Shown here: one piece after another, positions 3,949 to 27,058 of the stretch
How the letters are laid out: each line of letters begins with the position of its first letter
How positions within the stretch are numbered: position 1 is the first letter of the stretch
Source: Erysipelotrichaceae bacterium
Lineage (GTDB): Bacteria > Bacillota_I > Bacilli_A > Erysipelotrichales > Coprobacillaceae
Assembly: GCA_028698185.1 (NCBI GenBank)
Contig: JAQVDW010000004.1
Location: 1 to 32,000 of the forward strand
Direction of reading: 5' to 3'
Length of the DNA: 32,000 nt
The notes under the pieces: generated by a model
Databases searched by the model: none
The model's input: only the letters and a program-made list of their open reading frames with translations
Told to the model about the DNA's origin: nothing
Program-made: the position numbers and the translations under genes

Positions 3949-3960
3949 GTGGGCGATGGA

Positions 3961-4000
3961 GTCAACTTAAGAAATTTTTCTTGAGTTGGCTTTTATTTTG
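3961..4000 (+). terminator. rho-independent terminator after the AraC gene
   Basis: GTCAACTTAAG-aaattttt-CTTGAGTTGGC forms a hairpin with two mismatch/wobble positions. It is followed by TTTTATTTTG. Confidence 0.6.
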
Positions 4001-4299
4001 TTTCTGCACCCACCTTATTTCCAAATCGGTTTTGGACATAACTATAGATCCAATACATTAAAAAGAACGGATATAATCTATGACAGATTCTGATTTTTTT
4101 CGATATTTCCATTCATTCAAGGTGGGGTTGTCCTGCTTCGATATGTGGGGCAGGTTGCATGGATCGGTTATTTTTCATTTGAAATTACTGAAGCGCTATG
4201 TTACAAGCCGATTATTTCTTTTGAAATTCCGTTTTGGCGCCTTGTTCCAAATTGGGATTCGCATTATTGTCTCCTATGAAAATACTTATAAAAGAATTG

Positions 4300-4700
4300 A
4301 TTGTCGAGGTCAGGTTAAACGCCTAAGTAGCTTGATTTCGGGGTATTGTTCACGAATTCCATGGCCGGATTGTAGATATCCAGCTCCAGGATGGTGGCAT
4401 CGCAATCCCTGTAAAAGATGCCTGTAATCATTCAACCAAGCTTTTTGCAATGACAATTGCCTGAAGGTTGACTTTTTCAACAAGCTCATATACTGGTTTG
4501 TTCAATTACATTTCCGGATTATGGTGATGTGCGTATTGTCAGCTTTTGATTCCAGACATTCTTTCAAATCCATTTATCGGTTACAATGATCATTATAGAT
4601 GGATATTTGTTACTGACTAAAATCAGTTGCTGTTGTCATAATGTTTTGGGTTGTCGATTTCATGATCGATTTTCCCGAACCCTATGTCATTACAAACGCA
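4300..4700 (-). pseudogene. possible decayed gene(s): short protein-like frames broken by stops and frame changes
   Basis: Minus-strand fragments appear in successive frames. They read ...GFGKIDHEIDNPKHYDNSN*, MDLKECLESKADNTHITIIRKCN*, NKPVYELVEKVNLQAIVIAKSLVE* and TGIFYRDCDATILELDIYNPAMEFVNNTPKSSYLGV*. I do not recognise a family. Confidence 0.2.
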
Positions 4701-4701
4701 G

Positions 4702-4731
4702 CAAAGGCCCTTAATTTTTGAGGGGCCTTTG
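4702..4731. other. GC-rich hairpin (CAAAGGCCC / GGGCCTTTG, 11-12 nt loop); possible terminator
   Basis: Perfect 9-bp stem. It sits 2 nt after the end of the interrupted 75-codon minus-strand frame (4734..4961). The flanking U-tract is weak. Confidence 0.4.
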
Positions 4732-4733
4732 AC

Positions 4734-4961
4734 TTACTGCTTTTTTAGCATCAGTGATCGATTATGTAACGATGGAACTTGCGTGGATCGGCCCATCTTC
4801 TTATTGAGGTATTCGAGAGATTGCAATGCGACCCTGCATGCGTTGACTGCCGAGGCGCATCGATCAGTCCGCTTAAGTTTGCCCCAAACAGCTCGAACCG
4901 ATACAAAGGTTCATCCATAAGCACTGGCAACGAGCTGCGCCACCAACCGTATCATATCCAT
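4734..4961 (-). pseudogene. 75-codon frame with one in-frame TGA, directly downstream of the EIIB gene; possibly a decayed PTS EIIA (lactose/cellobiose type)
   Basis: The frame reads MDMIRLVAQLVASAYG*TFVSVRAVWGKLKRTDRCASAVNACRVALQSLEYLNKKMGRSTQVPSLHNRSLMLKKQ*. Its position, size and helical character fit an EIIA, but I cannot see the phospho-His motif. Confidence 0.15.
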
Positions 4962-5008
4962 ATACGTACCTTGGCATGGGGTTGGTTTGATGCGATTAAA
5001 GTGTTGAC

Positions 5009-5335
5009 TTATCTGGCCTTGCCTTCCAAGAGATCCCAGGCAAAGTTGAATACCTTTTCTCCTTGAAGAGTCGCGTAATCATGGGAATCGATTGATGCGA
5101 CGGGAATGGCGGGCTGCGGTCCGCTTTTTACCGTTTTTTCGATCTTTGTATTGAGATAGCTTAACGCCGGTTCGATCAAAACCAGATCGGCCTGGACTAT
5201 GTCATCACGAAATTGCGAATAGCGGACCGGAACCATCCGGATTGTGACATCACGTTCCCTGGCAAATGGTTCCATCTTTTTTATCAGCAGACCTGCCGAC
5301 ATGCAGTAGGCGCATACGACCGCGATTGTCTTCAT
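5009..5335 (-). CDS. PTS EIIB component, lactose/cellobiose family
   Basis: The ORF track frame is 5009..5362. ATG 5335 (MKTIAVVCAYCMSAGLLIKKME...) follows AAGGAG by 6 nt. The VVCAYCMSAGLL active-site Cys loop and ~108-aa size fit the PTS_IIB family. Confidence 0.75.
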   Translation of the reverse strand: MKTIAVVCAYCMSAGLLIKKMEPFARERDVTIRMVPVRYSQFRDDIVQADLVLIEPALSYLNTKIEKTVKSGPQPAIPVASIDSHDYATLQGEKVFNFAWDLLEGKAR

Positions 5336-5399
5336 TTTGATCTCCTTCATTGGCATCATCACCCCATACTAAGAATTATCCAAGAGTGTTTACAGGTAA

Positions 5400-5428
5400 A
5401 TCGTATTCCCAAAAGCGGATGCTGTCAA
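5400..5428 (-). promoter_or_regulatory. putative promoter for the EIIB gene (TTGACA-17-TACGAT)
   Basis: The minus strand reads TTGACA (5423-5428), a 17-nt spacer, then TACGAT (5400-5405). Confidence 0.45.
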
Positions 5429-5478
5429 CTTTATTAGATGCAAATGGTCGCAAAGTTCAGATTCCGTTTATCTTAATT

Positions 5479-5520
5479 TAAAAAGCACCCGGTCTTCATT
5501 CCAAGGTGCTTTTATTTTTG
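5479..5520 (-). terminator. rho-independent terminator downstream of padR (A/T tracts on both sides)
   Basis: AAAAGCACC...GGTGCTTTT stem flanked by AAAAA and TTTTATTTTT, immediately after the padR stop at 5526. Confidence 0.6.
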
Positions 5521-5525
5521 AATCA

Positions 5526-6080
5526 TTATGGCTTGTTTTTGGCTCCAGCTTCAATATAACCGATGCATTGATCAATCCACTCGATGATGTTTTCCTGTCT
5601 CATGATGGCCCCCTTGAGGACCACGAAGTCACCGAAGCGGTCCGAGTAAAGATCCGGGACTTCAGGGTATTGTTCCGAAGTCTTGACTAAGGTGTTGAGC
5701 CGTTTGAGATGTTGCTGGCGCTGGTTTTCAAGCAGGTGGATCCGGGTCTTGGGATCAAGGTTGTTCGAGAAGTACATCCGAAGCCGGAAAATGTCCTTCT
5801 GGGTCTTGGGAATCTTCTCATCTTTGTGGAGCCATTGGGTGAATTCAAGTTCGCCCTCTTTGGTAATCGAGTAGCGTTTGGCTTCGAGGATGTCGCCACT
5901 TATCTCGATATCGTAAGTCACCAGACCTTCGTCATTTAGTTTTTTTAGTTCGGGGTAAATCTGGCTGTGGCTGGCGTGCCAGAATTCGGCCAACTCGAAG
6001 TTGAATTCCTTGGCTAGTTCATAGCCGGTCATCGGTCTTTTTATCAGCAAGCCAAGGATGGCATATTTGAGTACTCGCAT
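5526..6080 (-). CDS. PadR-family transcriptional regulator (long form with C-terminal domain)
   Basis: The winged-HTH region reads YAILGLLIKRPMTGYELAKEF...SHSQIYPELKKLNDEGLV, over 184 aa. An AGGAGA SD lies upstream. Confidence 0.85.
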   Translation of the reverse strand: MRVLKYAILGLLIKRPMTGYELAKEFNFELAEFWHASHSQIYPELKKLNDEGLVTYDIEISGDILEAKRYSITKEGELEFTQWLHKDEKIPKTQKDIFRLRMYFSNNLDPKTRIHLLENQRQQHLKRLNTLVKTSEQYPEVPDLYSDRFGDFVVLKGAIMRQENIIEWIDQCIGYIEAGAKNKP

Positions 6081-14111: not shown

Positions 14112-14975
14112 CTATTTTCCGCTGAATACTGGCATAATTCGCATCATCCCGTATCCTTTGATTGGGGTGATGTTATTGAGTTTAGCCATATCCAGGTCGC
14201 TGATCTCAAAATCGACGGATGCATTTTCTTTCATATGCTCTGGATTGGCAGTCTTTGGCAGAGCGACCGTTCCAAGTTGCAGGTCATAACGGATGCAAAG
14301 CTGCGCTACGGTGACACCATATTTCGCTGCGATTGCCGCAATTTCCTTGTTTTTCAACACTTTGCCATGCGCGATTGGCGCATAGGCTTCGATCAGAATA
14401 TCCCTTTTATGGCAAAATTCAATCAGTTCGTGAGGCGTGTTGGAGATATGGCAAAGAACCTGGTTGACCATCGGCTTGATTTTGCAACCGGAAAGCAGGC
14501 TTTCGAGGTCGTCGATCAGAAAGTTGGAAACACCAATTGCCCGTAACAGACCCGCCTCATAAGCCTTCTCCATCGCCCGCCAAACCTCTTTGTTCTCCTG
14601 GTAGTAGCGGTTTTTCTTGCTGCGCCACTTGTTCCAGGGCTGGGGCGCGTGGATGATGAGAAGATCAAGATAATCCAGGCCAGTTGCGCTCAGGATATCA
14701 TCGATCGCTTTTTTTGCGGCCTGGTAGCTTTTGGCTTCGGCTGCGATTTTGCTTGTCACAAAAAGCTCTTCGCGAGGCACACCGCAAGTCCGGATTCCTT
14801 CACCGACGCCCGCTTCATTCATGTATGCCTGGGCGGTATCGACAAGCCGATAGCCGTTTGCAACAGCCTGTCTTATTGCTTGGGCTGCTGATTTGTTGTT
14901 GATGAACCACGTTCCAAGACCAAGCCTTGGTATCTCTACACCGTTTGATAGTGTGTATTTTTCTTCTAAAATCAT
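14112..14975 (-). CDS. aldo/keto reductase (2,5-diketo-D-gluconate-reductase-like)
   Basis: Motifs LGLGTW, YRLVDTAQAYMNE and LDYLDLLIIHAP over 287 aa, with a GAGGAGGA SD. Confidence 0.88.
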   Translation of the reverse strand: MILEEKYTLSNGVEIPRLGLGTWFINNKSAAQAIRQAVANGYRLVDTAQAYMNEAGVGEGIRTCGVPREELFVTSKIAAEAKSYQAAKKAIDDILSATGLDYLDLLIIHAPQPWNKWRSKKNRYYQENKEVWRAMEKAYEAGLLRAIGVSNFLIDDLESLLSGCKIKPMVNQVLCHISNTPHELIEFCHKRDILIEAYAPIAHGKVLKNKEIAAIAAKYGVTVAQLCIRYDLQLGTVALPKTANPEHMKENASVDFEISDLDMAKLNNITPIKGYGMMRIMPVFSGK

Positions 14976-14993
14976 CTGAATTCCTCCTCGATT

Positions 14994-15479
14994 TTATTCG
15001 TATAATGACAATATGATTGTCACGTTGCCAGTTCCAAGTATTTCTTTCAATTCATCCTGACTTGTGTCATTGATATGGCCCAGTTTGGTAAAGTTCCAAT
15101 TATTTGGCTCATAATATACCACGAAAGAATTTCCCATAAACAATATAAGATCACCCGGCTTGGTCGTGATATTCTCATCATTGGTCGGCAGACCTTTCCA
15201 GATCATCCCGACCTTTTCCATGCCGCCGTAGTCGCGCATCTGGATTGTTTTGGGCCCGCGCTCGAGCATCTGTCTTAATGCCTGAGCCGAGGAGTTGTTT
15301 TCCATTGTTGCGCCCATCTCATGACCGTTTATGGTCAGTCTTATCTGGTATTCGCCTTGGGGCGAAACTCCCAGGAAGCCAATAGGCGTGAACATGTAGA
15401 GAATCGCCAGGACCGCTATCGTCACAATCACGAATGGAACATACCACATTTTGCACACCTTCTTTTTAGATTTTTTCAT
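14994..15479 (-). CDS. cyclophilin-like-fold protein with an N-terminal membrane anchor or signal sequence
   Basis: The ORF track frame is 14994..15518. The start is ambiguous: GTG 15518 overlaps the cupin gene by 26 nt, ATG 15479 gives MKKSKKKVCKMWYVPFVIV..., and ATG 15452 has a GAAGGTG SD. The domain LTINGHEMGATMENNSSAQAL...GDLILFMGNSFVVYY resembles the small cyclophilin-like family that commonly sits next to cupin, CMD and flavodoxin genes. Confidence 0.6.
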   Translation of the reverse strand: MKKSKKKVCKMWYVPFVIVTIAVLAILYMFTPIGFLGVSPQGEYQIRLTINGHEMGATMENNSSAQALRQMLERGPKTIQMRDYGGMEKVGMIWKGLPTNDENITTKPGDLILFMGNSFVVYYEPNNWNFTKLGHINDTSQDELKEILGTGNVTIILSLYE

Positions 15480-15492
15480 AAAGATAGCTTTT

Positions 15493-15924
15493 TCAAAGAG
15501 CCTGGTAGCTGGATTCACTCACTTCTTCGAGCCATTGGACCGAGCGATCTTCGCCGATCGCATCAATCGCCAAAAGGCTAAAGCAGCTGTTTTTCTTGGT
15601 ACCATGCCAGTGTTTAACTCCAGGGGGGATGTGGACAACATCACCGGGTCCTAGCGGTAGCGCATCTTTTCCTTCTTCCTGGTACCAGCCTTCTCCCGCG
15701 GTGCAGATCAGAATTTGCCCGCCCCCTTTGGTGCTTTTGTGGACATGCCAGAAGCACCGTGAACCTGGTGAGAAGGTTACGTTTGCGAGCATCATTGATC
15801 TGCCCACCAATTTTACTGGTCGAAGATACGTCTTCCCGGTCATGTACCTTGCCAGGAAAAAATTTGGAATCCCGGTTTTGAATGTGTTGACTTTCTTGAA
15901 ATCTTTAAAATTCGCATATTTCAT
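15493..15924 (-). CDS. cupin-domain protein (small Mn-cupin type)
   Basis: VTFSPGSRCFWHVHKSTKGGGQILICTAGEGWYQEEG and GDVVHIPPGVKHWHG are the two cupin motifs, over 143 aa. An AAAGGAGA SD lies upstream. Confidence 0.85.
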   Translation of the reverse strand: MKYANFKDFKKVNTFKTGIPNFFLARYMTGKTYLRPVKLVGRSMMLANVTFSPGSRCFWHVHKSTKGGGQILICTAGEGWYQEEGKDALPLGPGDVVHIPPGVKHWHGTKKNSCFSLLAIDAIGEDRSVQWLEEVSESSYQAL

Positions 15925-15976
15925 GGATCAATCTCCTTTGCGCAAATGGTGATTTGGGTTCTTGTGAGGCAACTGA

Positions 15977-16411
15977 TTACAGCTTGGCGTATTGCTGATC
16001 CAAGACTTCTTCAAGCCATTCGTTTGAGCAGTTTTCACCGGCAACCTCAACTGAAATATGGCTGAACCAGCTGTCGGCCTTGGCCCCATGCCAGTGTTTG
16101 ACATTCGGGGCGATCACGATCACTTTTCCTGGAAGCAACTCCACTGGATCCTGACCCTCTTCCTGGTACCATCCTTCGCCTGCAGTGCAGATCAGGATCT
16201 GTCCGCCACCTGACGTTGATTTGTGGACATGCCAGTTGTTGCGGCATCCCGGTTCAAATGTCACGTTAGCCATGAAAACAGGGTCCTTTCCGGGCGCTGT
16301 CAAAAGGTTAAGATAGCTGTTCCCGATAAAATATTTGGCAAACATGGTATTTGGGATTCCCATTCCAAAACTGTTGACTTGATCGAATTCTTCTTTAGTT
16401 AAATATTTCAT
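15977..16411 (-). CDS. cupin-domain protein, tandem paralogue of 15493..15924
   Basis: VTFEPGCRNNWHVHKSTSGGGQILICTAGEGWYQEEG and GKVIVIAPNVKHWHG, over 144 aa. The block GGGQILICTAGEGWYQEEG is shared exactly with the neighbouring cupin. Confidence 0.85.
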   Translation of the reverse strand: MKYLTKEEFDQVNSFGMGIPNTMFAKYFIGNSYLNLLTAPGKDPVFMANVTFEPGCRNNWHVHKSTSGGGQILICTAGEGWYQEEGQDPVELLPGKVIVIAPNVKHWHGAKADSWFSHISVEVAGENCSNEWLEEVLDQQYAKL

Positions 16412-16437
16412 ATTCTTCTTCTCCTCGTTTGTTCATC

Positions 16438-17220
16438 TTATTTGGCATTTGTATTTTGTTGCTGCATCTGTTCTAAGGTGGAAATTGCATTGTTTATCGC
16501 GCTCATGGCATTCAATGATTTTGGGAAACCGATGTATGGAAGACTTTGGGCCACAGCGGCGTATAATATTTCAGGACCATTACCAATGAAAAGGTTGGCG
16601 ATGGCATGAGAGTTGGCCTGGCTGTCACAGCCACCTAAACATATTATGCATACGAAAGTAAGCAGCTCCCTGGTTTTCAAATCCAAGCCGGCTCTGGTAT
16701 AGGTATCGCCAAAGCAATAAGCGGACAGATAGTCCTGCATGAATTTCTGATTTTCCGGGGCGTTGGCACGCATGGCGTCAATCATCTCCCCGAAAAGCAT
16801 TTTTTGGGCGCTAATTCCCTTTTCCAGGCGGTCCTGTTCGCTGACAGTACATTGTTTTGGAAGCGGCAGTGTCAAACCGGCGTTTGCAAAGACATCCCGC
16901 AGGACTTTCAAACCCTTTTCGACTTTTGGGAAACCGACATACGGCGCCGCTTGATGGAAGACTTCCTGAAGCTCGATGGGATCAAGGCCTTGTCCTAAGG
17001 CGACCTGGAGTATCTCTTCGAGATCATCGGATTCACTTGTCACAAGCGCGGCAATTGTAACAAGTAATTGTGTCTTCGAATCAAGTTCGTGTTTTTGGAA
17101 CACTTCGCCATAAATGAAGTTGTTTTTGATATCGACGTATTCCGGAAAAACCGGAAGAAGATAACTGTCGGTCAAATTCTTTTTTTCCATTGTGCTTTTT
17201 GCCTGTTCAATACGGTTCAT
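16438..17220 (-). CDS. carboxymuconolactone decarboxylase (CMD/AhpD-like) family protein, two-domain form
   Basis: 260 aa with two repeats of the CMD-like helical unit (...LDSKTQLLVTIAALV...PYVGFPK... and ...LDLKTRELLTFVCIICLGGCDSQ...PYIGFPK...). Confidence 0.75.
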   Translation of the reverse strand: MNRIEQAKSTMEKKNLTDSYLLPVFPEYVDIKNNFIYGEVFQKHELDSKTQLLVTIAALVTSESDDLEEILQVALGQGLDPIELQEVFHQAAPYVGFPKVEKGLKVLRDVFANAGLTLPLPKQCTVSEQDRLEKGISAQKMLFGEMIDAMRANAPENQKFMQDYLSAYCFGDTYTRAGLDLKTRELLTFVCIICLGGCDSQANSHAIANLFIGNGPEILYAAVAQSLPYIGFPKSLNAMSAINNAISTLEQMQQQNTNAK

Positions 17221-17232
17221 AAATTAAATCTC

Positions 17233-17598
17233 CTATTCATTTTCTGATGCTATCGTGATTTTTACGGAATCCGGCAATTTCTTAATCTGCTCGATTTGCG
17301 ATTCTTTGAGATGGGCAACTACCATCACGCCACGATAGTTTTCCGATTGCTGCTCCCCATCAAAAAATATTGCAAGCCAGCCCCCTGCGAGGCTGATGTC
17401 GCCGTTTTTCCAACCGATCTGGGTCTGGGCTGGGTCAAACAGGCCACAGGCAACATTGCAGCAATAATCGACTGGGGAACGATATCCCGTCAATTTGAGC
17501 GGCAGCCTTTTTTTAAGATCCTGGGCGGCAACAGTATCATTGAGTTCAGTCGATATCGACAGATGACCTGCTGTCAATCTGATTGGTGTTGGCATCAC
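17233..17598 (-). CDS. cyclophilin-like-fold protein (cytoplasmic paralogue)
   Basis: 121 aa. The sequence IRLTAGHLSISTELNDTVAAQDL...GDISLAGGWLAIFF has the same layout as 14994..15479 but lacks the hydrophobic N-terminus. An AAAGGAGGAG SD lies upstream. Confidence 0.6.
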   Translation of the reverse strand: MMPTPIRLTAGHLSISTELNDTVAAQDLKKRLPLKLTGYRSPVDYCCNVACGLFDPAQTQIGWKNGDISLAGGWLAIFFDGEQQSENYRGVMVVAHLKESQIEQIKKLPDSVKITIASENE

Positions 17599-18482: not shown

Positions 18483-19352
18483 ATGGAATATGTTACTTTG
18501 AATAACGAATTGAAAATGCCGATCCTGGGATTCGGGGTATTTCAGGTTCCTGACAAAAAGGAATGCGAGGAATCGGTGTACCAGGCGATAAAAGCCGGAT
18601 ACCGTCTGATCGATACCGCTGCTGCCTATACGAATGAAGATGCCGTCGGTGCCGGTGTCAAAAAGGCGATTAATGAAGGCATCTGCACAAGGGAAGACCT
18701 GTTCATCACTTCCAAAATGTGGGTTCAGGACATGGAAAGCTATGAAACGGCCAAAAAAGCTATCGATGTGTCAATTGAAAAGTGTGGTTTGGAATATCTT
18801 GACCTATACCTCCTGCATCAGGCGATGGGCGATTATTTCGCAGCTTGGCGTGCCATGGAAGACGCTTACCGGGAAGGCAAGTTGAAAGCGATCGGAGTAT
18901 CCAACTTCTATCCTAACATCCTGACTAATTTCTGCGAGACAGTGGCGATCAAGCCGATGGTCAACCAGGTTGAATTGCATCCGTATTTCACCCAGGAAAA
19001 GGCTTTGGAAACGATGAAGCAATACGACGTTATTCCAGAAGCGTGGGCACCGCTTGGAGGGGGACGATACAATCCGTTCGAAGACGGTATGCTTGTGGCC
19101 ATAGCTAAAAGATACAACAAGACAGTGGGTCAGGTGTTGCTTCGCTGGAACATCCAACGGGGCGTGGTAGTCATTCCAAAATCAACCCATGTTGAAAGAA
19201 TAATCGAGAATATTGATGTCTTTGATTTCAGTCTTGATGAAACCGAAATGGCTAAAATAGCCTCATTGGATCAGGGGTACAGCGGTTCTAGGGCCAAGCA
19301 TTTTGAGCCTGATTTCGTCCGTGGCTGCCTGGCAATGAAAATACATGATTAA
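18483..19352 (+). CDS. aldo/keto reductase (second copy, 2,5-didehydrogluconate-reductase-like)
   Basis: Motifs LGFGVFQV, YRLIDTAAAYTNE, LEYLDLYLLHQA and IPKSTHVERIIEN over 289 aa, with an AAAGGAGAAAG SD. Confidence 0.88.
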   Translation: MEYVTLNNELKMPILGFGVFQVPDKKECEESVYQAIKAGYRLIDTAAAYTNEDAVGAGVKKAINEGICTREDLFITSKMWVQDMESYETAKKAIDVSIEKCGLEYLDLYLLHQAMGDYFAAWRAMEDAYREGKLKAIGVSNFYPNILTNFCETVAIKPMVNQVELHPYFTQEKALETMKQYDVIPEAWAPLGGGRYNPFEDGMLVAIAKRYNKTVGQVLLRWNIQRGVVVIPKSTHVERIIENIDVFDFSLDETEMAKIASLDQGYSGSRAKHFEPDFVRGCLAMKIHD

Positions 19353-19810
19353 ATGAGGCAGAATGTTCGTTTGGCTGGAGTTGTAAGATTGCCATTTGAA
19401 CCGGCTTAATCAAACAACTATGTTTTGAAATTGATTGGAATGCAAAAATCAGGGGAATGTCATGGCTTGTAAAAGTTGTGGCATTTTTTTGTTTTAATAA
19501 GTATGATGAGACTGTAAAGGATGAACGGAGCCGTCCCAACTCCAACCGGAGACAATTGGAGACAGAAGCAAAAAAAGACCGGAATCGGCCTTTTTCAAAT
19601 TGTGGATTTATGTTTCCTGAGGGAAATGTAGTAGACATGCAATTTCTTTGCAGATACTCTCAAGTTAGGAATGTCTTCAGTCTGGATTCTATTGACTTGT
19701 TGAGATAAGACTCACAACAAACCATTACTAATCAGCTGAGCCGAAGGTTTTTCAATATAGTTGGCAAATTCATATTATATTTGCTCATATCAAACTGATC
19801 AAGGGGATAT

Positions 19811-19839
19811 GTTGAAAGGATTGATAATTTATGTTACAA
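19811..19839 (+). promoter_or_regulatory. putative promoter upstream of the Fic/VbhA remnants (TTGAAA-17-TACAAT)
   Basis: gTTGAAAggattgataatttatgtTACAATt. Confidence 0.35.
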
Positions 19840-19892
19840 TTTGTTTATAATTTTGAAATTTATGGAGAAATGGTAATGCATGGTATTGGTTG

Positions 19893-20060
19893 GATGAAAT
19901 CAAGAATATAAGAGAAGCAGTTAATAATGCTTTAGGAATTTTACTGACCGCTGCTGAGCTGCCCAACTAAAATTATCTAAGACCGCTTGACGATTTTGTG
20001 CTCGGCAAAATCACAATTGAAGAACGGGATATAAAGGATCATAGGTTGGAGTTATCAATT
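19893..20060 (+). pseudogene. VbhA-like (FicA-type) antitoxin remnant with an in-frame TAA
   Basis: The frame reads DEIKNIREAVNNALGILLTAAELPN*NYLRPLDDFVLGKITIEERDIKDHRLEL. From memory this parallels VbhA (..RRDARNALASQRLEGLEP....VVVGELETSDVIKDLMERI). There is no ATG in frame, a TAA at 19968-19970, and the (S/T)xxxE(G/N) inhibitory motif is shortened to TAAEL. Confidence 0.45.
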
Positions 20061-20539
20061 AGAGACGCCCACTGTTATTATGCTACTCAGGTATTGAAAA
20101 TCAAATATGATATCAAGGATAAGGAGATTCTTGAATAGCGTGAAAGAGTAAGTGCAAAAACAAAAATAATATCTCTAGAATTACGCCCGGGGCAAATCAA
20201 TACTGACGTATCTATAGAATATTTGTATAAATTGAACTTCTTTTTGTTTGACAGCTTGTATGATTGGGTTAAAGTAAGTTGGAAAGACTATTGGAACAAG
20301 CTCGGGGCTATAAGTGGGATGATATCCAAGTCGCGATAAAATTCGCTTATGATTTGTTTGTTGGCCTGTGGGAAATCCATCCGTATCGCAAGGGAAACAC
20401 AGGGACATGTCAAACTTTCATCGGACGGATATTTTCGTGCAAAGGTATGGAATTCAATTCGGATCTATTGAAAAATCATCCTGCATATGCCCAGTCAGTC
20501 TTGGTATGGCGGTGTGTGACAATCCACAATATCTCATGA
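20061..20539 (+). pseudogene. Fic (FIDO) domain toxin remnant with an in-frame TAG, a frameshift and a degenerate active-site motif
   Basis: The first frame reads RDAHCYYATQVLKIKYDIKDKEILE*RERVSAKTKIISLELRPGQINTDVSIEYLYKLNFFLFDSLYDW. This matches the usual short-Fic N-terminus (Y.Y.GT.VLKNKLGI.D...L ... HL..IH..LF.D.Y.WAG). A shift to the frame of ORF 20279..20539 then gives ...WDDIQVAIKFAYDLFVGLWEIHPYRKGNTGTCQTF. Here HPYRKGNTGTCQ replaces the HPFxxGNGRxxR consensus. Confidence 0.6.
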
Positions 20540-20587
20540 ATATATCATCGGACGCTTTTCGAGCTTAATTCAATAATAGATTTCTCA

Positions 20588-20713
20588 ATGAAGAAAGGAA
20601 AGCAAAAGAATAACAGGTTTCAAAGGAAAATTATTATTCCACAAAAAACGCGAGAAATTAGTGAAGACAAAGAGGTTGAAGAACGGTTAAGAAAACGGTT
20701 GATTGTAGAATAA
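20588..20713 (+). CDS. hypothetical small basic protein (41 aa); coding status uncertain
   Basis: It reads MKKGKQKNNRFQRKIIIPQKTREISEDKEVEERLRKRLIVE*. I see no clear SD, and it is below the ORF-track size cut-off. Confidence 0.2.
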   Translation: MKKGKQKNNRFQRKIIIPQKTREISEDKEVEERLRKRLIVE

Positions 20714-20758
20714 TCTGGAGTCAATAGGTTGAAGATGCGATTCTATGGAGGAAGGCAA

Positions 20759-21301
20759 ATGAAAAATATAGTAATACTGTTTGTAATCGGGTTAACGTTG
20801 ACAGGTTGTAGCGGAGATAAATCATCATCACAGATGGTTGAGGAAAACACTAAAGAGCTTTTGACGGTCTTGTTTACTTTGCCAGACGATGATGCGTGCC
20901 AGATCGCCCGGGACCAGGGGCTGGAAACATATGAGCAGCTGATCCAAAGTGAGCAGTTGAACAATGAATATATCCAGGTTTATCTCCCTGGAATGCTTGA
21001 ATCGCTTGAATATGTATGCGATGAGGATGGCTTGGAAAGTGTCCGGAACATTCACTTTTTAAATGAATTTTATTACTGCTGTCTTTTCTCTGGGGCGGCA
21101 TACCCGGAATCGATTGAGATTACCCGGGAAAACGATACATGGTACAAATTCACAATCAATGAGTCCACTTCTTGGAATGATGAAGGTTTCAAGGTCAATG
21201 GCGAGGTTACCCTTAAAGACGGTCTGATTTCCAATATCCATGTCAATGATGGCGATATGAAGAACTTCTTCGATGGTGGGAACGTCAGGCTTGCCGGATA
21301 A
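20759..21301 (+). CDS. lipoprotein of unknown function
   Basis: The ORF track frame is 20729..21301. ATG 20759 follows GGAGGAAGG. MKNIVILFVIGLTLTGCSGDKSSSQ is a signal peptide with an L-T-G-C lipobox. I recognise no domain in the rest. Confidence 0.7.
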   Translation: MKNIVILFVIGLTLTGCSGDKSSSQMVEENTKELLTVLFTLPDDDACQIARDQGLETYEQLIQSEQLNNEYIQVYLPGMLESLEYVCDEDGLESVRNIHFLNEFYYCCLFSGAAYPESIEITRENDTWYKFTINESTSWNDEGFKVNGEVTLKDGLISNIHVNDGDMKNFFDGGNVRLAG

Positions 21302-21350
21302 CGGTCTTCTATCTTGTGAAGTCGAATCTTCGAAAAATATTATGGGACGT

Positions 21351-21375
21351 AAAAAAAGGCCGAAAGGCCTTTTTG
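21351..21375. terminator. bidirectional rho-independent terminator
   Basis: AAAAAAAGGCC-gaa-AGGCCTTTTT lies between the convergent lipoprotein gene and the GGGtGRT gene. Confidence 0.85.
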
Positions 21376-21383
21376 TATTATGA

Positions 21384-22382
21384 TTAGTTGTGCGCTTCTT
21401 GGATAGCAACGGCAACAGCTACTGTAGCTCCTACCATTGGGTTGTTACCCATACCGATCAATCCCATCATTTCAACGTGGGCAGGTACTGATGAAGAACC
21501 AGCGAATTGAGCATCACTGTGCATTCTTCCCATAGTATCTGTCATACCGTATGAAGCAGGACCAGCAGCCATGTTGTCAGGGTGTAATGTACGTCCAGTA
21601 CCACCACCAGATGCTACAGAGAAGTATTTTTTACCTTGTTCCAAACATTCTTTTTTGTATGTTCCGGCAACTGGATGTTGGAAACGAGTTGGGTTAGTTG
21701 AGTTCCCAGTGATTGAGATATCAACGCCTTCACGGTGCATGATAGCTACACCTTCTTGAACGTCGTCAGCACCGTAGCAGTTTACTTTAGCGCGAGGTCC
21801 GTCTGAATATGATTTACGGAAAACTTCTTTCAATTCACCAGTAGCATAGTCATATTGAGTTTCAACGTGAGTGAATCCGTTGATACGTGAGATGATTTTA
21901 GCTGCGTCTTTTCCAAGACCGTCTAAGATTACACGTAAAGGTTCTTTACGAACGCGGTTAGCCGCTTCGGCGATTTTGATTGCTCCTTCAGCTGCAGCGA
22001 AAGATTCGTGTCCAGCCAAGAAAGCGAAACATTTAGTTTCTTCCAATAATAACATTGAACCTAAGTTACCATGTCCCAAACCTACTTTACGTTGGTCAGC
22101 AACTGAACCTGGGATACAGAAAGCTTGTAAACCAACCCCGATCATTTTAGCTGCTTCTACTGCAGAAGTAGCTCCGGTTTTGATTGCGATTGCAGCACCT
22201 GTAATGTATGCCCAACAAGCGTTTTCGAAACAGATTGGTTGAGTTGATTTTACGATATCGTAAACGTTGACACCTTTAGCGTCACAAATAGCTTTAGCTT
22301 CATCCAAATCTTTGATTCCGTATTGAGCTAAAGTTTCGTTGATTGTATTAATTCTGCGGTCATAACTTTCAAATAATGGCAT
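21384..22382 (-). CDS. GGGtGRT-family protein (conserved, function unknown)
   Basis: The ORF track frame is 21384..22430. ATG 22382 (MPLFESYDRRINTINE...) follows TAAGGAGGAG by 7 nt, giving 332 aa. It contains SGGGTGRTLHPDN, the name-giving motif of the uncharacterised GGGtGRT protein family (from memory of Pfam). Confidence 0.8.
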   Translation of the reverse strand: MPLFESYDRRINTINETLAQYGIKDLDEAKAICDAKGVNVYDIVKSTQPICFENACWAYITGAAIAIKTGATSAVEAAKMIGVGLQAFCIPGSVADQRKVGLGHGNLGSMLLLEETKCFAFLAGHESFAAAEGAIKIAEAANRVRKEPLRVILDGLGKDAAKIISRINGFTHVETQYDYATGELKEVFRKSYSDGPRAKVNCYGADDVQEGVAIMHREGVDISITGNSTNPTRFQHPVAGTYKKECLEQGKKYFSVASGGGTGRTLHPDNMAAGPASYGMTDTMGRMHSDAQFAGSSSVPAHVEMMGLIGMGNNPMVGATVAVAVAIQEAHN

Positions 22383-22395
22383 TATCTTCTCCTCC

Positions 22396-23088
22396 TTATT
22401 CGCATCTTGGATCGATGTATTTAGCAGCATCTGCGAATCTACCGTAAGTTTTAGTAGCTTCTTTCATTGCTTCGTTAGCATCCATCCCTTTTTTGATTTT
22501 ATCCATCATGATACCTAGAGAAATAAACTCATATCCACAAGTTTCACCGTCTGCATCCAAACCTAAACGAGTGATGTAACCTTCAGCCAATTCTAAGTAA
22601 CGAGGACCTTTATCTTTAGTAGCATAAGTTGTCCCAACTTGAGATCTTAAACCTTTACCTAAGTCTTCTAAACCAGCACCAATTGGCAATCCTCCTTCAG
22701 AGAATGCAGTTTGGCTGCGACCGTAAACGATTTGTAAGAATAATTCTCTCATTGCTGTATTGATCGCATCGCATACCAAGTCAGTATTTAATGCTTCTAA
22801 AACAGTTCTACCAACGATAGCTTCTGAAGCCATAGCTGCTGAGTGAGTCATCCCTGAACATCCGATTGTTTCAATTAATGCTTCTTCAATGATACCTTCT
22901 TTAACGTTTAATGTTAATTTACAAGCACCCTGTTGAGGAGCACACCAACCAATCCCATGAGTCAATCCTGAAATATCAGTGATTTGTTTTGAGTATACCC
23001 ATTTTCCTTCTTGTGGAATTGGAGCGCAACCATGCGATGCACCAATTTTGACACATTGCATTTGTTCTACTTCGTGTGTGTAATTCAT
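22396..23088 (-). CDS. IscU/NifU-N-like Fe-S scaffold-domain protein with a ~110-aa C-terminal extension
   Basis: The ORF track frame is 22396..23109. I prefer ATG 23088 (MNYTHEVEQMQC...) after AAAGGAG, although the 11-nt spacing makes the start somewhat uncertain. GWCAPQQGACKLTLNVKEGIIEEALIETIGCSGMTHSAAMASEAIVGRTVLEAL parallels the IscU pattern (CGD..L.L.V....I....F...GC....ASSS...E...GK...EA). Its TAA stop is embedded in the SD of the downstream gene. Confidence 0.65.
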   Translation of the reverse strand: MNYTHEVEQMQCVKIGASHGCAPIPQEGKWVYSKQITDISGLTHGIGWCAPQQGACKLTLNVKEGIIEEALIETIGCSGMTHSAAMASEAIVGRTVLEALNTDLVCDAINTAMRELFLQIVYGRSQTAFSEGGLPIGAGLEDLGKGLRSQVGTTYATKDKGPRYLELAEGYITRLGLDADGETCGYEFISLGIMMDKIKKGMDANEAMKEATKTYGRFADAAKYIDPRCE

Positions 23089-23159
23089 CTTTTGAAATAC
23101 TCCTTTCATATTCTTAATGATTGCAACTTTTCTGTAGCGCCATAGCGACCACTTGCTAG

Positions 23160-23188
23160 ATTATAATAAAAATGGGCTTATTAGTCAA
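23160..23188 (-). promoter_or_regulatory. near-consensus sigma-A promoter for the IscU-like/GGGtGRT operon (TTGACT-17-TATAAT)
   Basis: The minus strand reads TTGACT (23183-23188), exactly 17 nt, then TATAAT (23160-23165). This leaves a leader of about 65 nt to the start at 23088. Confidence 0.7.
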
Positions 23189-24446: not shown

Positions 24447-24453
24447 GTCCTTA

Positions 24454-24522
24454 GTTATACGACTGACGGAAGTGGAATTGACCACATGAAGTATAATCTT
24501 GAGAGCCGACCGTCTGGGCACC
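24454..24522 (+). promoter_or_regulatory. candidate ZTP (pfl-motif) riboswitch aptamer
   Basis: P1 pairs GTTATAC (24454-24460) with GTATAAT (24491-24497). The junction is GACTGACGGAA. P2 pairs GTGG (24472-24475) with CCAC (24482-24485). The 3' subdomain is GCCGACCGTCTGGGCA (24505-24520), against the remembered consensus ..CCGCCUGGGCA. The pseudoknot pairs GACGG (24465-24469) with CCGTC (24510-24514). The genomic context (fhs, purH, purN) is typical for ZTP riboswitches. Confidence 0.65.
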
Positions 24523-24556
24523 TGCCTGGATTTGTTGAGCTCTTTTTTTGTTTTTT
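24499..24556 (+). terminator. probable riboswitch expression platform (terminator overlapping the 3' aptamer strand)
   Basis: An inner hairpin pairs TCTGGG (24513-24518) with CCTGGA (24525-24530). An outer helix pairs GAGAGC (24501-24506) with GCTCTT (24539-24544). These are followed by TTTTTTTGTTTTTT. The exact fold is uncertain. Confidence 0.45.
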
Positions 24557-24631: not shown

Positions 24632-26308
24632 ATGAATGAAATGTTAAGCGATGTAGAGATTGCACAAAGCACAAAAATGGATCCAATCAAGGACATTGGA
24701 GCCACTGTAGGATTGGCTGAAGACGATCTGGAACTGTATGGAAAATACAAGGCCAAGATCTCTTTGGAGGCGATTGAAAAACTTACTGACAAGCCTGATG
24801 GCAAACTGGTACTGGTGACGGCGATCAACCCGACTCCAGCCGGTGAAGGGAAAACCACAACGATGATCGGTCTGGCCCAAGGATTGAACCAGATCGGGCA
24901 AAAGGCGATTGTCGCGATGCGCGAACCGTCACTTGGTCCATGTTTTGGAATCAAGGGTGGGGCTGCTGGAGGCGGTTATGCCCAAGTTGTCCCGATGGAA
25001 GACATTAACTTACATTTTACCGGTGATATCCATGCGATTTCAACGGCCAACAACCTGATCGCAGCGATGCTTGACAACTCGATCCATCAGGGGAATCCTC
25101 TGAATATCGATGTCCGCCGCATTGTCTGGAAACGGGTGGTCGATCTCAACGACCGCGCCTTGCGCAATATCGTGATCGGACTTGGAGGCGTGCTTCAAGG
25201 TGTACCCCGTGAAGACGGATTCGACATTGCCGTAGCCAGCGAAGTCATGGCGGTATTGTGTCTGGCGACTTCGATGAACGATTTGAAAGAACGTCTGGGA
25301 AAAATGATTGTTGCATACGATTTCAACAAGGAGCCCGTTACCGTGGCCGACCTTAAAGCGACCGGGGCGGTTACGCTTCTTCTAAAGGATGCTTTCAAAC
25401 CGAACCTGGTGCAGACTCTCGACCATTATCCGGTGTTGGTTCATGGTGGTCCGTTTGCGAACATCGCCCATGGCTGCAATTCGATGATCGCAACCAAACT
25501 GGCGCTAAAACTTGGTGATATCGCGATCACTGAAGCGGGATTCGGTGCCGATCTGGGAGCCGAAAAATTCCTCGACATCAAATGCCGTCAGGGAGACTTG
25601 AAACCGGACATGGCCGTGGTCGTGGCGACGATCCGTGCGCTCAAGATGCACGGTGGTGTTGTTAAAGCCGACCTGGCAGGTGAGAACCTCGATGCATTGC
25701 AGGCGGGATTTGCCAACCTGGAAAAACATCTGGAAAACATGAACAAATTCGGATTGCCGGCTGTTGTGGCAATCAACGTATTCCCGACCGACACCCAAGG
25801 GGAAATCGACCTTCTTGAAGCGATGTGCAAAAAAATCGGAGTTGAAGTTTCACTTTCAACCGTATTTGCCAACGGCGGAGATGGAGCCATCGATCTGGCC
25901 AACAAGGTTGTGGCGACCCTGGCAAAACCAAGCAACTACGCGCCGATCTACAAGCTTGAAGACACGATTGAAGCCAAACTGGAAACAATCGCCAAGGAAG
26001 TATACGGGGCTAGCGGTGTCATCCTGAGCCCGAAGGTCAAGACCAAAATCCGTCAGTTCAACGCCCAAGGCCTGAATGAACTGGCAATCTGCATGGCCAA
26101 GACCCAATATTCATTGAGCGATGATCCAGGGAAACTGGGCCGCCCGGAAAATTTCGAGATCACGATTTCGGATCTGATTCCAGCAGCGGGAGCGGGATTC
26201 CTGGTAGCCATCTCCGGTTCGATCATGAGAATGCCAGGCCTGCCAAAAACGCCGGCGGCAGTCAATATGGATATCGACGACAGCGGCAAGATCACCGGAT
26301 TGTTCTAA
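24632..26308 (+). CDS. fhs: formate--tetrahydrofolate ligase
   Basis: 558 aa, with SDVEIAQ near the N-terminus, the P-loop [10 protein letters not shown] and the C-terminus MPGLPK.PAA..IDID..G.I.GLF. The start could be 24632 or 24641. Confidence 0.95.
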
Positions 26309-26350
26309 AATAATACTAATAAACTTTAAGACAAGGAAAAGGAAAATAAT

Positions 26351-27058
26351 ATGTCAGAATTGTTATACGAAGGAAAAGCAAAACAAGTTTATTCAACAGA
26401 CGATAAGGAAGTTTACCTGATTCACTTCAAAGATGATGCGACTGCAGGTAACGGAGCGAAACATGACGTTTTCGCAAACAAGGGAGTATTGAACAACACG
26501 ATTTCGACAATCATCTATGGCATGCTTGAAGAAAACGGAATCAAAACCCACCTGATTTCAAAAGTGAACGACCGCGACATCCTGGTTAAGAAAGTGGAGA
26601 TCCTGCCATTGGAAGTTATCGTCCGCAACGTTTTGGCTGGATCAATCTGTGCTAGACTCGGACTTGAAGAAGGCCGCGTTCTTGAAGAACCGATCTTCGA
26701 ATTGTGCTGGAAAAACGACGAATACCATGATCCGATGATCAATGAAGACCATGCGGTATTGGCGCTGAATGCGGCTACCCGCGAAGAAGTTGCCTACCTT
26801 AAAGACCAAACCCTGAAAATCAACGAATTGCTTAAGAAATTCTTCCTGGAAATCGGCCTTAAACTGGTCGACTTCAAGATCGAGTTCGGTAAAACAAGCG
26901 ACGGGCAAATCATCCTCGCTGATGAAATCTCACCGGACACTTGCCGTCTGTGGGATGTCAAAACCAATGCGAAGTTTGACAAAGATGTCTTCAGAAGAGA
27001 CATGGGTAACTTGATTGACACATATAATGAAGTATTGAACAGATTGAATAGGAGATAA
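26351..27058 (+). CDS. purC: phosphoribosylaminoimidazole-succinocarboxamide (SAICAR) synthase
   Basis: LLYEGKAKQVY...DDATAGNG...LEVIVRN...ILADEISPDTCRLWD over 235 aa. Confidence 0.95.
   Translation: MSELLYEGKAKQVYSTDDKEVYLIHFKDDATAGNGAKHDVFANKGVLNNTISTIIYGMLEENGIKTHLISKVNDRDILVKKVEILPLEVIVRNVLAGSICARLGLEEGRVLEEPIFELCWKNDEYHDPMINEDHAVLALNAATREEVAYLKDQTLKINELLKKFFLEIGLKLVDFKIEFGKTSDGQIILADEISPDTCRLWDVKTNAKFDKDVFRRDMGNLIDTYNEVLNRLNRR

What the first reader, a model, noticed from the sequence alone, without database searches (positions are those of the whole stretch)
21384..23188. Tightly coupled IscU-like scaffold and GGGtGRT protein pair with a consensus promoter and high-expression-type codon usage: a conserved system of unknown function
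**Seen in sequence:**
- The pair forms a two-gene minus-strand operon.
- The upstream 230-aa protein starts with an IscU/NifU-N-like Cys-containing domain (GWC..QGAC..IGCSGMTHSAAMASE). It continues into a ~110-aa extension ending in DPRCE.
- Its TAA stop is part of the TAAGGAGG SD of the 332-aa downstream protein, which carries SGGGTGRTLHPDN.
- The operon has a TTGACT-17-TATAAT promoter and a strong bidirectional terminator.
- Codon usage differs sharply from that of the neighbours. In the C-terminal ~75 codons read by hand, Gly is 8 GGT, 4 GGA and no GGC or GGG, and Ala is GCT in 8 of 12 cases. Arg is mostly CGT, Thr is ACT/ACA and Leu is TTA/TTG. The adjacent fhs and capA-like genes mix all four Gly codons and favour CTG, GCC and ATC.

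**Established knowledge (from memory):** the GGGtGRT family is a conserved domain family with no assigned function.

**Inference:**
- This T/A-ending optimal-codon pattern, together with the consensus promoter, predicts very high expression. The alternative explanation is foreign origin.
- Coupling to a scaffold-like partner suggests a metallocluster-dependent enzyme, or a maturation pair, central to anaerobic metabolism.
Basis: partly seen in the sequence, partly recalled or inferred. Interest (0 to 1): 0.75.

Follow-up and report, generated by a model that had tools for sequence, protein, structure and literature searches.

The report
Conserved GGGtGRT and IscU-like protein pair
This is a real two-gene operon for a very conserved, highly expressed iron-linked protein pair of anaerobic microbes; its job is still unknown, and gene neighbours hint at a link to the lower part of glycolysis.

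Summary
On the minus strand, a 230-aa IscU-like gene (22396-23088) is translationally coupled to a 332-aa GGGtGRT gene (21384-22382). A TTGACT-17-TATAAT promoter and a hairpin terminator flank them.

- **Pairing:** in 157 of 157 testable loci from many phyla, the IscU-like gene sits directly upstream of GGGtGRT. A diverged branch (~52% identity) keeps the pairing too.
- **Conservation:** identity between phyla plateaus near 80%, above pgk, tpiA and gpmI from the same genomes.
- **Codon usage:** the odd usage is real. It reflects selection for expression, not foreign origin. The pair is syntenic in a relative whose neighbouring genes have drifted in GC3 while the pair has not. Two-fold C-ending codons are enriched.
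- **Published data:** high abundance, iron-dependent expression, and a hit in a Bacteroides glucose-signalling screen. No function has been published.
- **Structure:** the GGGtGRT model matches no solved structure.
- **Small protein:** it has four invariant cysteines and lacks scaffold hallmarks. I read it as a permanent cluster-holding subunit, not an assembly scaffold.
- **New lead:** phosphoglycerate mutase genes recur next to the pair.

This locus is an ordinary member of a catalogued but uncharacterised family.

The parts
23160..23188 (-). Sigma-70-type promoter, TTGACT (23188-23183), 17-nt spacer, TATAAT (23165-23160)
   Evidence: 11 of 12 matches, the best site in the 4.2-kb scan. Sequence read.
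23100..23107 (-). Ribosome-binding site GAAAGGAG for the first gene, 11 nt before the ATG at 23088
   Evidence: Sequence read. The start at 23088 is fixed by alignment with homologues.
22396..23088 (-). Small subunit, 230 aa. It has an IscU-fold core (about residues 45-125) with invariant C49, C56, C77 and C106, plus a family-specific C-terminal half ending DPRxE.
   Evidence: NifU_N 23.5 bits; below all NCBIfam scaffold cutoffs; PDB IscU hits, E~3e-3; invariant columns in 21 diverse sequences; exact match MDD3027918.1, Erysipelotrichaceae MAG.
22391..22398 (-). Coupling junction: the TAA stop of gene 1 overlaps the AAGGAGG ribosome-binding site of gene 2, 8 nt before its ATG
   Evidence: Sequence read. 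The median gap between the two genes is about 21 nt in 157 loci, and the genes overlap by 8-11 nt in the diverged branch.
21384..22382 (-). Large subunit, GGGtGRT protein of 332 aa. It has an N-terminal helical domain (1-112), an alpha/beta domain (118-257), a glycine-rich invariant segment SGGGTGRTLHPDN...GRMHSD (258-289) and a C-terminal helix.
   Evidence: PF14057, E=9e-193; invariant residues; AF2 pLDDT 83.9, pTM 0.87; residues 259-288 below 50; no relative in the PDB by sequence, fold or profile.
21346..21374 (.). Bidirectional intrinsic terminator: a 9-bp stem (AAAAAGGCC/GGCCUUUUU) with a 4-nt loop and U-runs on both strands. It is shared with the convergent 190-aa gene (20729-21301, +).
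   Evidence: dG -11.6 kcal/mol, z = -4.38, 0 of 200 shuffles fold as well.

Best explanation
The two genes encode the two subunits of one obligate, abundant, iron-dependent protein complex of anaerobes. It is most likely an iron-sulfur enzyme.

- **Stoichiometry:** translational coupling makes the subunits in matched amounts.
- **Small subunit:** it has the IscU fold but has been converted from a transient scaffold into a permanent cluster holder. It has four invariant cysteines, no labile Asp ligand and no chaperone-docking LPPVK motif.
- **Large subunit:** GGGtGRT supplies the ligand site. Invariant glycine-rich loops follow the strands of a Rossmann-like alpha/beta domain (GLGKD, TGNSTNP, SGGGTGRTxHPDN). 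A 30-residue invariant segment rich in His, Asp and Ser cannot be placed in the model of the subunit alone, and probably orders only against the partner, the cluster or the substrate.
- **Substrate:** probably a small phosphorylated three-carbon acid at the 3-phosphoglycerate/2-phosphoglycerate node of lower glycolysis, or a side product of that node.

**Shown:** the pairing, the coupling, the conservation, the cysteine pattern, the codon selection, the published abundance and iron response, and the gene neighbourhoods.

**Inferred:** the heteromer, the permanent cluster, enzymatic activity and the identity of the substrate.
For: - **Pairing:** 78 of 78 testable GTDB loci and 79 of 79 testable metagenome loci have the IscU-like gene directly upstream on the same strand, with a median gap of 21 nt.
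- **Co-divergence:** the diverged branch keeps the pair. GGGtGRT is 54% identical there and the partner 51%.
- **Self-contained unit:** no third gene recurs among 247 neighbours.
- **Cysteines:** C49, C56, C77 and C106 are invariant in 21 diverse sequences, diverged branch included. HMMER places Q53-G54-A55 opposite IscU C37-G38-D39.
- **Conservation:** median pairwise identity is 0.80, and 242 of 568 columns are invariant in 78 species. Between L057 and L068 the pair is 79% identical, against 62%, 49% and 54% for pgk, tpiA and gpmI.
- **Expression, computed:** C-ending two-fold codons are enriched over the flanks in 68 of 70 hosts, and pair GC3 tracks host GC3 with r=0.91. Codon identity at conserved residues is 71-76% for the pair against 43-55% for neighbours in the syntenic relative L081.
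- **Expression, published:** the protein is highly expressed in chicken caecum across phyla (PMC11204068).
- **Iron:** BT0173-74 drops 11-13 fold in iron depletion (PMC10434189). The C. pasteurianum homologue is listed among proteins whose abundance changed with iron availability (PMC5395762).
- **Glycolysis link, diverged branch:** four lineages share apgM, partner, GGGtGRT, a ~320-aa protein and His_Phos_1, plus gpmI in L087.
- **Glycolysis link, main branch:** L057 and L167 read pgk-tpiA-gpmI-pair with a 31-nt gap. L068 reads pgk-tpiA-gpmI-x-pair. L130 and L146-150 have gpmI about 2 kb upstream. L069 has His_Phos_1 directly upstream.
- **Genetics:** BT0173-4 transposon mutants came out of the same glucose-signalling screen as pfkA (bioRxiv 10.64898/2026.04.10.717545).
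Against: - No cluster, complex or activity has been shown for any member.
- The complex model failed. The partner half had pLDDT below 50.
- GGGtGRT has only one invariant Cys (C202), so any catalytic metal site is conjectural.
- The glycolytic adjacency covers only about 3-4 independent main-branch lineages out of about 157 loci. Clustering of highly expressed genes could explain it.
- In L130 and L146, two unrelated genes lie between gpmI and the pair.
- B. thetaiotaomicron mutants grow normally on glucose and change the reporter only 2-fold. This argues against an essential glycolytic step.
- The diverged branch may have a different function from the main family.
Confidence: 0.45

Rival explanations
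1. This is a dedicated Fe-S assembly or maturation pair. The IscU-like protein transiently builds a cluster and hands it to GGGtGRT or to other client proteins.
For: There is IscU-family similarity around the GCSG..SAAMASE core. NCBI and JGI name the protein a scaffold. Expression depends on iron (PMC10434189).
Against: - The protein scores 22-27 bits against equivalog cutoffs of 92-192.
- It has four invariant Cys, no Asp39 equivalent in register and no LPPVK motif.
- No cysteine desulfurase recurs among 247 neighbouring genes.
- The two genes are made in matched amounts and both are abundant in proteomes (PMC11204068, PMC7035244). That is unusual for a maturation factor.
- The C-terminal ~105 residues are as conserved as the core.
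Confidence: 0.15
2. This is an abundant non-enzymatic iron, sulfur or redox-buffer protein of anaerobes. It could be an iron or cluster reservoir, or protect against oxygen, peroxide or NO, in the manner of rubrerythrin or ferritin.
For: It is very abundant, repressed in iron starvation and dispensable for growth in vitro (PMC10434189; bioRxiv 10.64898/2026.04.10.717545). It was reported alongside rubrerythrins among proteins expressed in vivo (PMC11204068). The only profile hit in the PDB is a short stretch of plant ferritin, and it is not significant (E=0.35).
Against: - The invariant glycine-rich loops on a Rossmann-like domain look like a small-molecule site.
- The neighbourhood link is to phosphoglycerate mutases rather than to stress genes.
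- No fold similarity to ferritin or rubrerythrin was found.
Confidence: 0.2
3. The atypical codon usage marks a recently acquired foreign gene pair from a low-GC donor, not high expression.
For: Pair GC3 is about 0.27 below the flanks. That is a larger gap than in any of 70 other hosts, where the largest is 0.15. The nearest outside homologues are from low-GC Erysipelotrichales. Transfer does occur in this family: there is an archaeal copy at about 80% identity with archaeal neighbours, and MAG contigs whose copy clusters with another phylum.
Against: - The pair has the same position next to PGA_cap-fhs-pur in a relative with 94-96% identical proteins.
- Between the two genomes the flanks differ in GC3 by 0.11-0.25, but the pair differs by only 0.03-0.07. 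Its synonymous sites are more conserved.
- Two-fold C-ending codons (TAC, CAC, TTC, AAC) are enriched in the pair (0.68) despite low GC3. This exceeds the low-GC relatives (0.38-0.53).
- The nearest homologues belong to the host's own family.
Confidence: 0.05
4. This is a metabolic or iron sensor rather than an enzyme. The complex would bind a glycolytic intermediate and a redox-sensitive cluster, and modulate other proteins.
For: B. thetaiotaomicron insertions raise Cur-dependent Roc about 2-fold in glucose without a growth defect (bioRxiv 10.64898/2026.04.10.717545).
Against: Regulators are rarely among the most abundant proteins (PMC11204068). No DNA-binding or signalling domain was found. 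The 2-fold effect can be an indirect result of altered metabolite pools.
Confidence: 0.1

Closest known systems
Pfam PF14057 'GGGtGRT protein' family, for example B. thetaiotaomicron BT0173 and C. pasteurianum F502_05012
   Same: The match is full length (E=9e-193). All family motifs are present. Identity to members from other phyla is 75-86%. The operon partner is the same as BT0174 (PMC10434189).
   Different: Nothing differs materially. This is a typical member from an Erysipelotrichaceae MAG. The family itself has no assigned function.
IscU/NifU-N/SufU Fe-S scaffold proteins (PF01592; TIGR01999, TIGR03419, TIGR01994; PDB 2kqk, 4eb5, 6w1d)
   Same: The core is shared: beta-hairpin, then GC(S/G)G..S(A/S)..(A/S)SE helix, then a Cys at the start of the last helix. 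C77 and C106 are in register with IscU C63 and C106.
   Different: - It is 230 aa rather than about 130, with a conserved 45-aa N-terminal lead and a 105-aa C-terminal half.
- Two invariant Cys (C49, C56) flank the loop where IscU has C37 and D39.
- The LPPVK segment is deleted.
- It scores far below the scaffold cutoffs.
- It is never beside a cysteine desulfurase, and always beside GGGtGRT.
Two-subunit Fe-S (de)hydratases of anaerobes (L-serine dehydratase alpha/beta, class I fumarate hydratase alpha/beta)
   Same: The resemblance is in organisation only: adjacent small and large genes, oxygen-sensitive lifestyle, high expression and iron dependence.
   Different: No sequence or fold similarity was detected. 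The best Foldseek hit against the PDB has E=7.5e-3 and TM <= 0.28, with no dehydratase among the hits. Profile search of the PDB was empty. This is an analogy, not membership.

Membership tests
PF14057 GGGtGRT | Full-length match to the family HMM above the gathering score | tested here: met
   639.9 bits against a cutoff of 27; residues 4-330 cover profile positions 1-327 of 327.
PF14057 GGGtGRT | The eponymous GGGtGRT motif | tested here: met
   S258-G-G-G-T-G-R-T265 is invariant in 42 sequences, including the diverged branch.
IscU/NifU-N scaffold (PF01592) | Domain-level HMM match | tested here: inconclusive
   23.5 bits against a cutoff of 22, covering only profile positions 38-95 of 127. 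The diverged-branch partner scores 18.5 bits, below the cutoff.
IscU / clostridial NifU / SufU equivalogs (TIGR01999, TIGR03419, TIGR01994) | Score above the curated equivalog cutoff | tested here: not met
   22.1, 27.2 and 22.7 bits against cutoffs of 192.4, 187.9 and 92.5.
IscU-type scaffold | Three cluster-ligand Cys (C37, C63, C106) plus the labile Asp39 | tested here: not met
   C77 and C106 correspond to IscU C63 and C106. HMMER puts Q53-G54-A55 opposite C37-G38-D39. Invariant C49 and C56 flank the loop instead.
IscU-type scaffold | LPPVK motif for HscA/Hsc66 docking | tested here: not met
   The 230-aa sequence holds no LPPVK-like string. NTDL is followed directly by VCDAIN. The role of the motif is from established knowledge.
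IscU-type scaffold | Genomic association with a cysteine desulfurase (IscS/NifS/SufS) | tested here: not met
   Aminotran_5 is not among the recurrent families in 130 upstream and 117 downstream neighbours. There is none in the window next to the pair.
Fe-S protein (general) | Bound iron-sulfur cluster | not testable with these tools
   This needs anaerobic purification with UV-vis, EPR or Moessbauer spectroscopy. Only the four invariant Cys and iron-dependent expression are available (PMC10434189).
Any family with a solved structure | Sequence, profile or fold similarity of GGGtGRT to a PDB chain | tested here: not met
   phmmer found 0 hits at E<=10. The best profile hit has E=0.35. Foldseek found 0 hits at E<=1e-3, with TM <= 0.28.

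The most novel reading that the evidence does not exclude
GGGtGRT and its IscU-fold partner form a previously unrecognised iron-sulfur enzyme with a fold not seen in the PDB. It would act on a phosphorylated three-carbon acid next to phosphoglycerate mutase. That would be a hidden, iron-dependent reaction or repair step of lower glycolysis, shared by most strict anaerobes and some methanogens.
Probability: 0.2. Interest if true: 0.85.

Novelty: new member of a known kind. Interest (0 to 1): 0.6.

Why it matters
- **A prominent unknown:** the pair is among the most conserved and most abundant proteins of gut, rumen and sediment anaerobes. It is about 80% identical across phyla. Yet it has no function, no structure and no solved-structure relative.
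- **What a function would explain:** assigning one would close a visible gap in anaerobe physiology. It could explain an iron-dependent link to sugar sensing in Bacteroides. It would also show how an assembly scaffold fold was recruited as a permanent enzyme subunit.
- **What this work adds:** the pairing rule, the four-Cys signature and the phosphoglycerate mutase neighbourhood give concrete experiments to run.

Tried and rejected
- **Complex modelling:** I used the 569-aa read-through fusion P0192 as a single-chain proxy for the heterodimer. MAFFT mis-registered the two homologue blocks in A4, A5, A6, A8 and A9, and partly in A10. Only A7 was clean, with three close partner sequences. Its model gave pLDDT below 50 for the whole partner half. 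No interface can be read from it, and both prediction jobs are used.
- **Fold search:** Foldseek of the GGGtGRT model against the PDB returned only weak Rossmann-type noise.
- **Sequence searches of the PDB:** phmmer and profile searches gave nothing. A ferritin stretch at E=0.35 was rejected as chance.
- **RNA elements:** Rfam found no riboswitch or leader upstream of the pair in the window or in 11 loci. The T-box in L001 belongs to a divergent Cys/Met gene.
- **Third gene:** BLAST clustering and Pfam on 247 neighbours found only lineage-specific synteny, such as Hexapep and topoisomerase in Lachnospiraceae.
- **Remote relatives:** in the library clustered at 50% identity the family is essentially one full-length cluster plus fragments. 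P0359 proved to be a frameshifted sequence.
- **Operator sites:** I compared the promoter region by eye with Fur, Rex and cre consensus sequences. Nothing was convincing, and I ran no tool on it.
- **Enolase replacement:** I considered that the pair might be an alternative enolase, because it sits where eno usually follows gpmI. I rejected this as a simple replacement because B. thetaiotaomicron mutants grow normally on glucose.
- **Codon adaptation index:** scoring against ribosomal-protein genes of the same genome was not possible. The window has none, and the tools cannot walk along the source genome.
Full report
**What is in the window**

On the minus strand, a 230-aa gene (22396-23088) and a 332-aa gene (21384-22382) form a compact operon.
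- The promoter TTGACT-17-TATAAT lies at 23188-23160. It is the best match in the region (11 of 12).
- The first gene starts at the ATG at 23088, because all homologues begin MxYxxEV.
- Its TAA stop overlaps the AAGGAGG ribosome-binding site of the second gene, 8 nt before that gene's ATG.
- A 9-bp hairpin at 21353-21374 has U-runs on both strands (dG -11.6 kcal/mol, z = -4.4). It terminates this operon and the convergent 190-aa gene.
- The large protein is a full-length PF14057 GGGtGRT protein (E=9e-193).
- The small protein has only a marginal NifU_N match (23.5 bits against a cutoff of 22). It lies far below every NCBIfam scaffold cutoff.
- Exact copies of both proteins are on record from Erysipelotrichaceae MAGs.
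- The neighbours are unrelated to the pair: a lipoprotein-like gene, PGA_cap, and a ZTP-riboswitch-controlled fhs-purCMNHD operon.

**Codon usage**

- Pair GC3 is 0.25-0.30, against 0.47-0.71 for all 26 other genes. The pair almost exclusively uses GGT/GGA, GCT/GCA, CGT/AGA, ACT/ACA, TTA/TTG, AAA, GAA and CAA.
- Despite the low GC3, C-ending two-fold codons are more frequent in the pair than in the neighbours (TAC 70% against 42%, CAC 69% against 33%, TTC 87% against 63%, AAC 79% against 58%). From established knowledge, this is the signature of translational selection, not of AT-rich foreign DNA.
- Across 70 loci from very different hosts, pair GC3 tracks host GC3 (r=0.91, range 0.13-0.91). 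The two-fold C enrichment recurs in 68 of 70.
- A relative with 94-96% identical proteins has the pair in the same place beside PGA_cap-fhs-pur. Between the two genomes the flanking genes differ in GC3 by 0.11-0.25, while the pair differs by 0.03-0.07. Codon identity at conserved residues is 71-76% for the pair against 43-55% for the flanks.
- Foreign origin is therefore disfavoured, and selection on synonymous sites is supported.
- I could not compute a codon adaptation index against ribosomal-protein genes of the same genome.

**A strict pair**

They span Erysipelotrichales, Clostridia, Bacteroidales, Treponema, Geobacter, Desulfobacteraceae, Syntrophorhabdus, a Polyangiaceae MAG and Methanobacteriaceae.
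- In 78 of 80 kept loci the IscU-like gene lies directly upstream on the same strand. The other two are cut by a contig end.
- A metagenome scan gave 79 of 80, again with the one exception at a contig end.
- The median gap between the genes is 21 nt.
- No third gene recurs.
- A small diverged branch (GGGtGRT 54% identical, partner 51%) keeps the pairing, with overlapping genes.

**Conservation**

- Median pairwise identity of the concatenated pair is 0.80, and 242 of 568 columns are invariant in 78 species. Sequences mostly cluster by taxonomic family, and identity between phyla plateaus at 0.77-0.82.
- Between two Clostridia genomes the pair is 79% identical, while pgk, tpiA and gpmI from the same contigs are 62%, 49% and 54%.
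- In a library clustered at 50% identity the family collapses to essentially one full-length cluster.
- Some transfer occurs. A Methanobacteriaceae contig with archaeal neighbours carries the pair. Two contigs labelled Bacteroides carry Lachnospiraceae-like copies.

**The proteins**

- The small protein has four invariant cysteines, C49, C56, C77 and C106, plus H44.
- C77 and C106 match IscU C63 and C106. The IscU C37-G38-D39 triplet aligns to Q53-G54-A55, and C49 and C56 flank that loop instead.
- The LPPVK segment is absent. The cysteine of the terminal DPRCE is not conserved.
- I infer a permanent all-Cys cluster site rather than a labile scaffold site.
- The AF2 model of GGGtGRT is confident (pLDDT 83.9, pTM 0.87). 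It shows a helical domain and a Rossmann-like alpha/beta domain. The most conserved segment, residues 259-288 including GGGTGRT, is not placed.
- No solved structure resembles the model.
- An attempt to model the complex through a read-through fusion failed.

**Published data**

No paper in the library assigns a function.
- The pair BT0173-74 falls 11-13 fold in iron-depleted B. thetaiotaomicron (PMC10434189).
- The C. pasteurianum protein is listed among those whose abundance changed with iron availability (PMC5395762).
- It is highly expressed in vivo across phyla (PMC11204068).
- It is prominent in rumen metaproteomes (PMC7035244, PMC12643325).
- An antibody against S. copri recognises it (PMC12078515).
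- Transposon insertions in BT0173-4 were recovered, together with pfkA, in a screen for loss of glucose-dependent Cur inhibition. They gave a 2-fold effect and no growth defect (bioRxiv 10.64898/2026.04.10.717545).

**A new lead**

- In four lineages of the diverged branch the operon reads apgM, partner, GGGtGRT, a ~320-aa membrane-anchored unknown protein and His_Phos_1. One lineage has an extra gpmI.
- In the main family, L057 and L167 read pgk-tpiA-gpmI-partner-GGGtGRT with a 31-nt gap. L068 reads pgk-tpiA-gpmI-x-pair.
- A third lineage has gpmI about 2 kb upstream, and L069 has His_Phos_1 directly upstream.
- This is more than I would expect by chance. My rough estimate is under one gpmI neighbour in about 157 loci, but I did not test it formally.
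- Together with the Bacteroides screen, it points to the 3-PG/2-PG node.

**Verdict**

This locus is an ordinary member of a catalogued but uncharacterised family. I read it as a two-subunit iron-sulfur enzyme with a recruited IscU fold, possibly tied to lower glycolysis. The first part carries moderate confidence and the second low confidence.

Noticed in passing
window 24449-24526 (+): A ZMP/ZTP riboswitch (RF01750, 52.8 bits against a gathering score of 39) lies just upstream of fhs (24632-26308) and purC-purM-purN-purH-purD. This is a known type of association.
   Followed up: partly
window 26308-26351 compared with L081 5566-6057: The close relative has purE between fhs and purC. The window goes straight from fhs to purC, so purE is missing or elsewhere in this genome.
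   Followed up: no
window 19352-20729: This stretch of about 1.4 kb has no long ORF. The short ORF 20279-20539 contains 'IHPYRKGNTGT', which recalls a degraded Fic/DOC motif. It may be a pseudogene remnant; I did not test it.
   Followed up: no
window 3948-5526: This stretch of about 1.6 kb has no ORF of 120 aa or more. It lies between an AraC-type regulator and a PadR-type regulator. Rfam found nothing there at gathering threshold.
   Followed up: no
window 14112-17598 (-): A tight minus-strand cluster of small enzymes of unclear role: aldo/keto reductase, cyclophilin-like-2, two cupins, CMD (carboxymuconolactone decarboxylase family) and a second cyclophilin-like-2.
   Followed up: no
P0192, P0121, P0125, P0002 (metagenome proteins): Some database entries are read-through fusions of the two genes (P0192, 569 aa). 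Others carry tandem duplications of the last ~90 residues (P0121, P0125) or of the IscU-like core (P0002). These look like assembly or gene-calling artefacts rather than natural fusions.
   Followed up: partly
L171 (Methanobacteriaceae MAG contig JAUNXS010000028.1), also L079: The pair sits among archaeal-type genes (ATP-dependent DNA ligase, ThiC, rubredoxin, DUF2099) at about 80% identity to bacterial copies. This implies transfer between bacteria and archaea.
   Followed up: partly
L032 and L056 (contigs labelled Bacteroidaceae/Bacteroides MAGs): Their copies of the pair are 93-95% identical to Lachnospiraceae copies and far from other Bacteroidales copies. The contigs are either mis-binned or reflect recent transfer.
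   Followed up: no
L082 9005-9958, L085 6992-7972, L087 2067-3065, L089 3808-4770: A conserved protein of about 320 aa follows GGGtGRT in every diverged-branch operon. The four copies are 44-59% identical to each other. It has an N-terminal membrane anchor and no Pfam, NCBIfam or PDB match.
   Followed up: partly
bioRxiv 10.1101/2022.06.29.498201: A C. innocuum survey lists GGGtGRT among its top-scoring 'virulence factor' hits. This is probably a database labelling artefact for a very conserved housekeeping protein.
   Followed up: no
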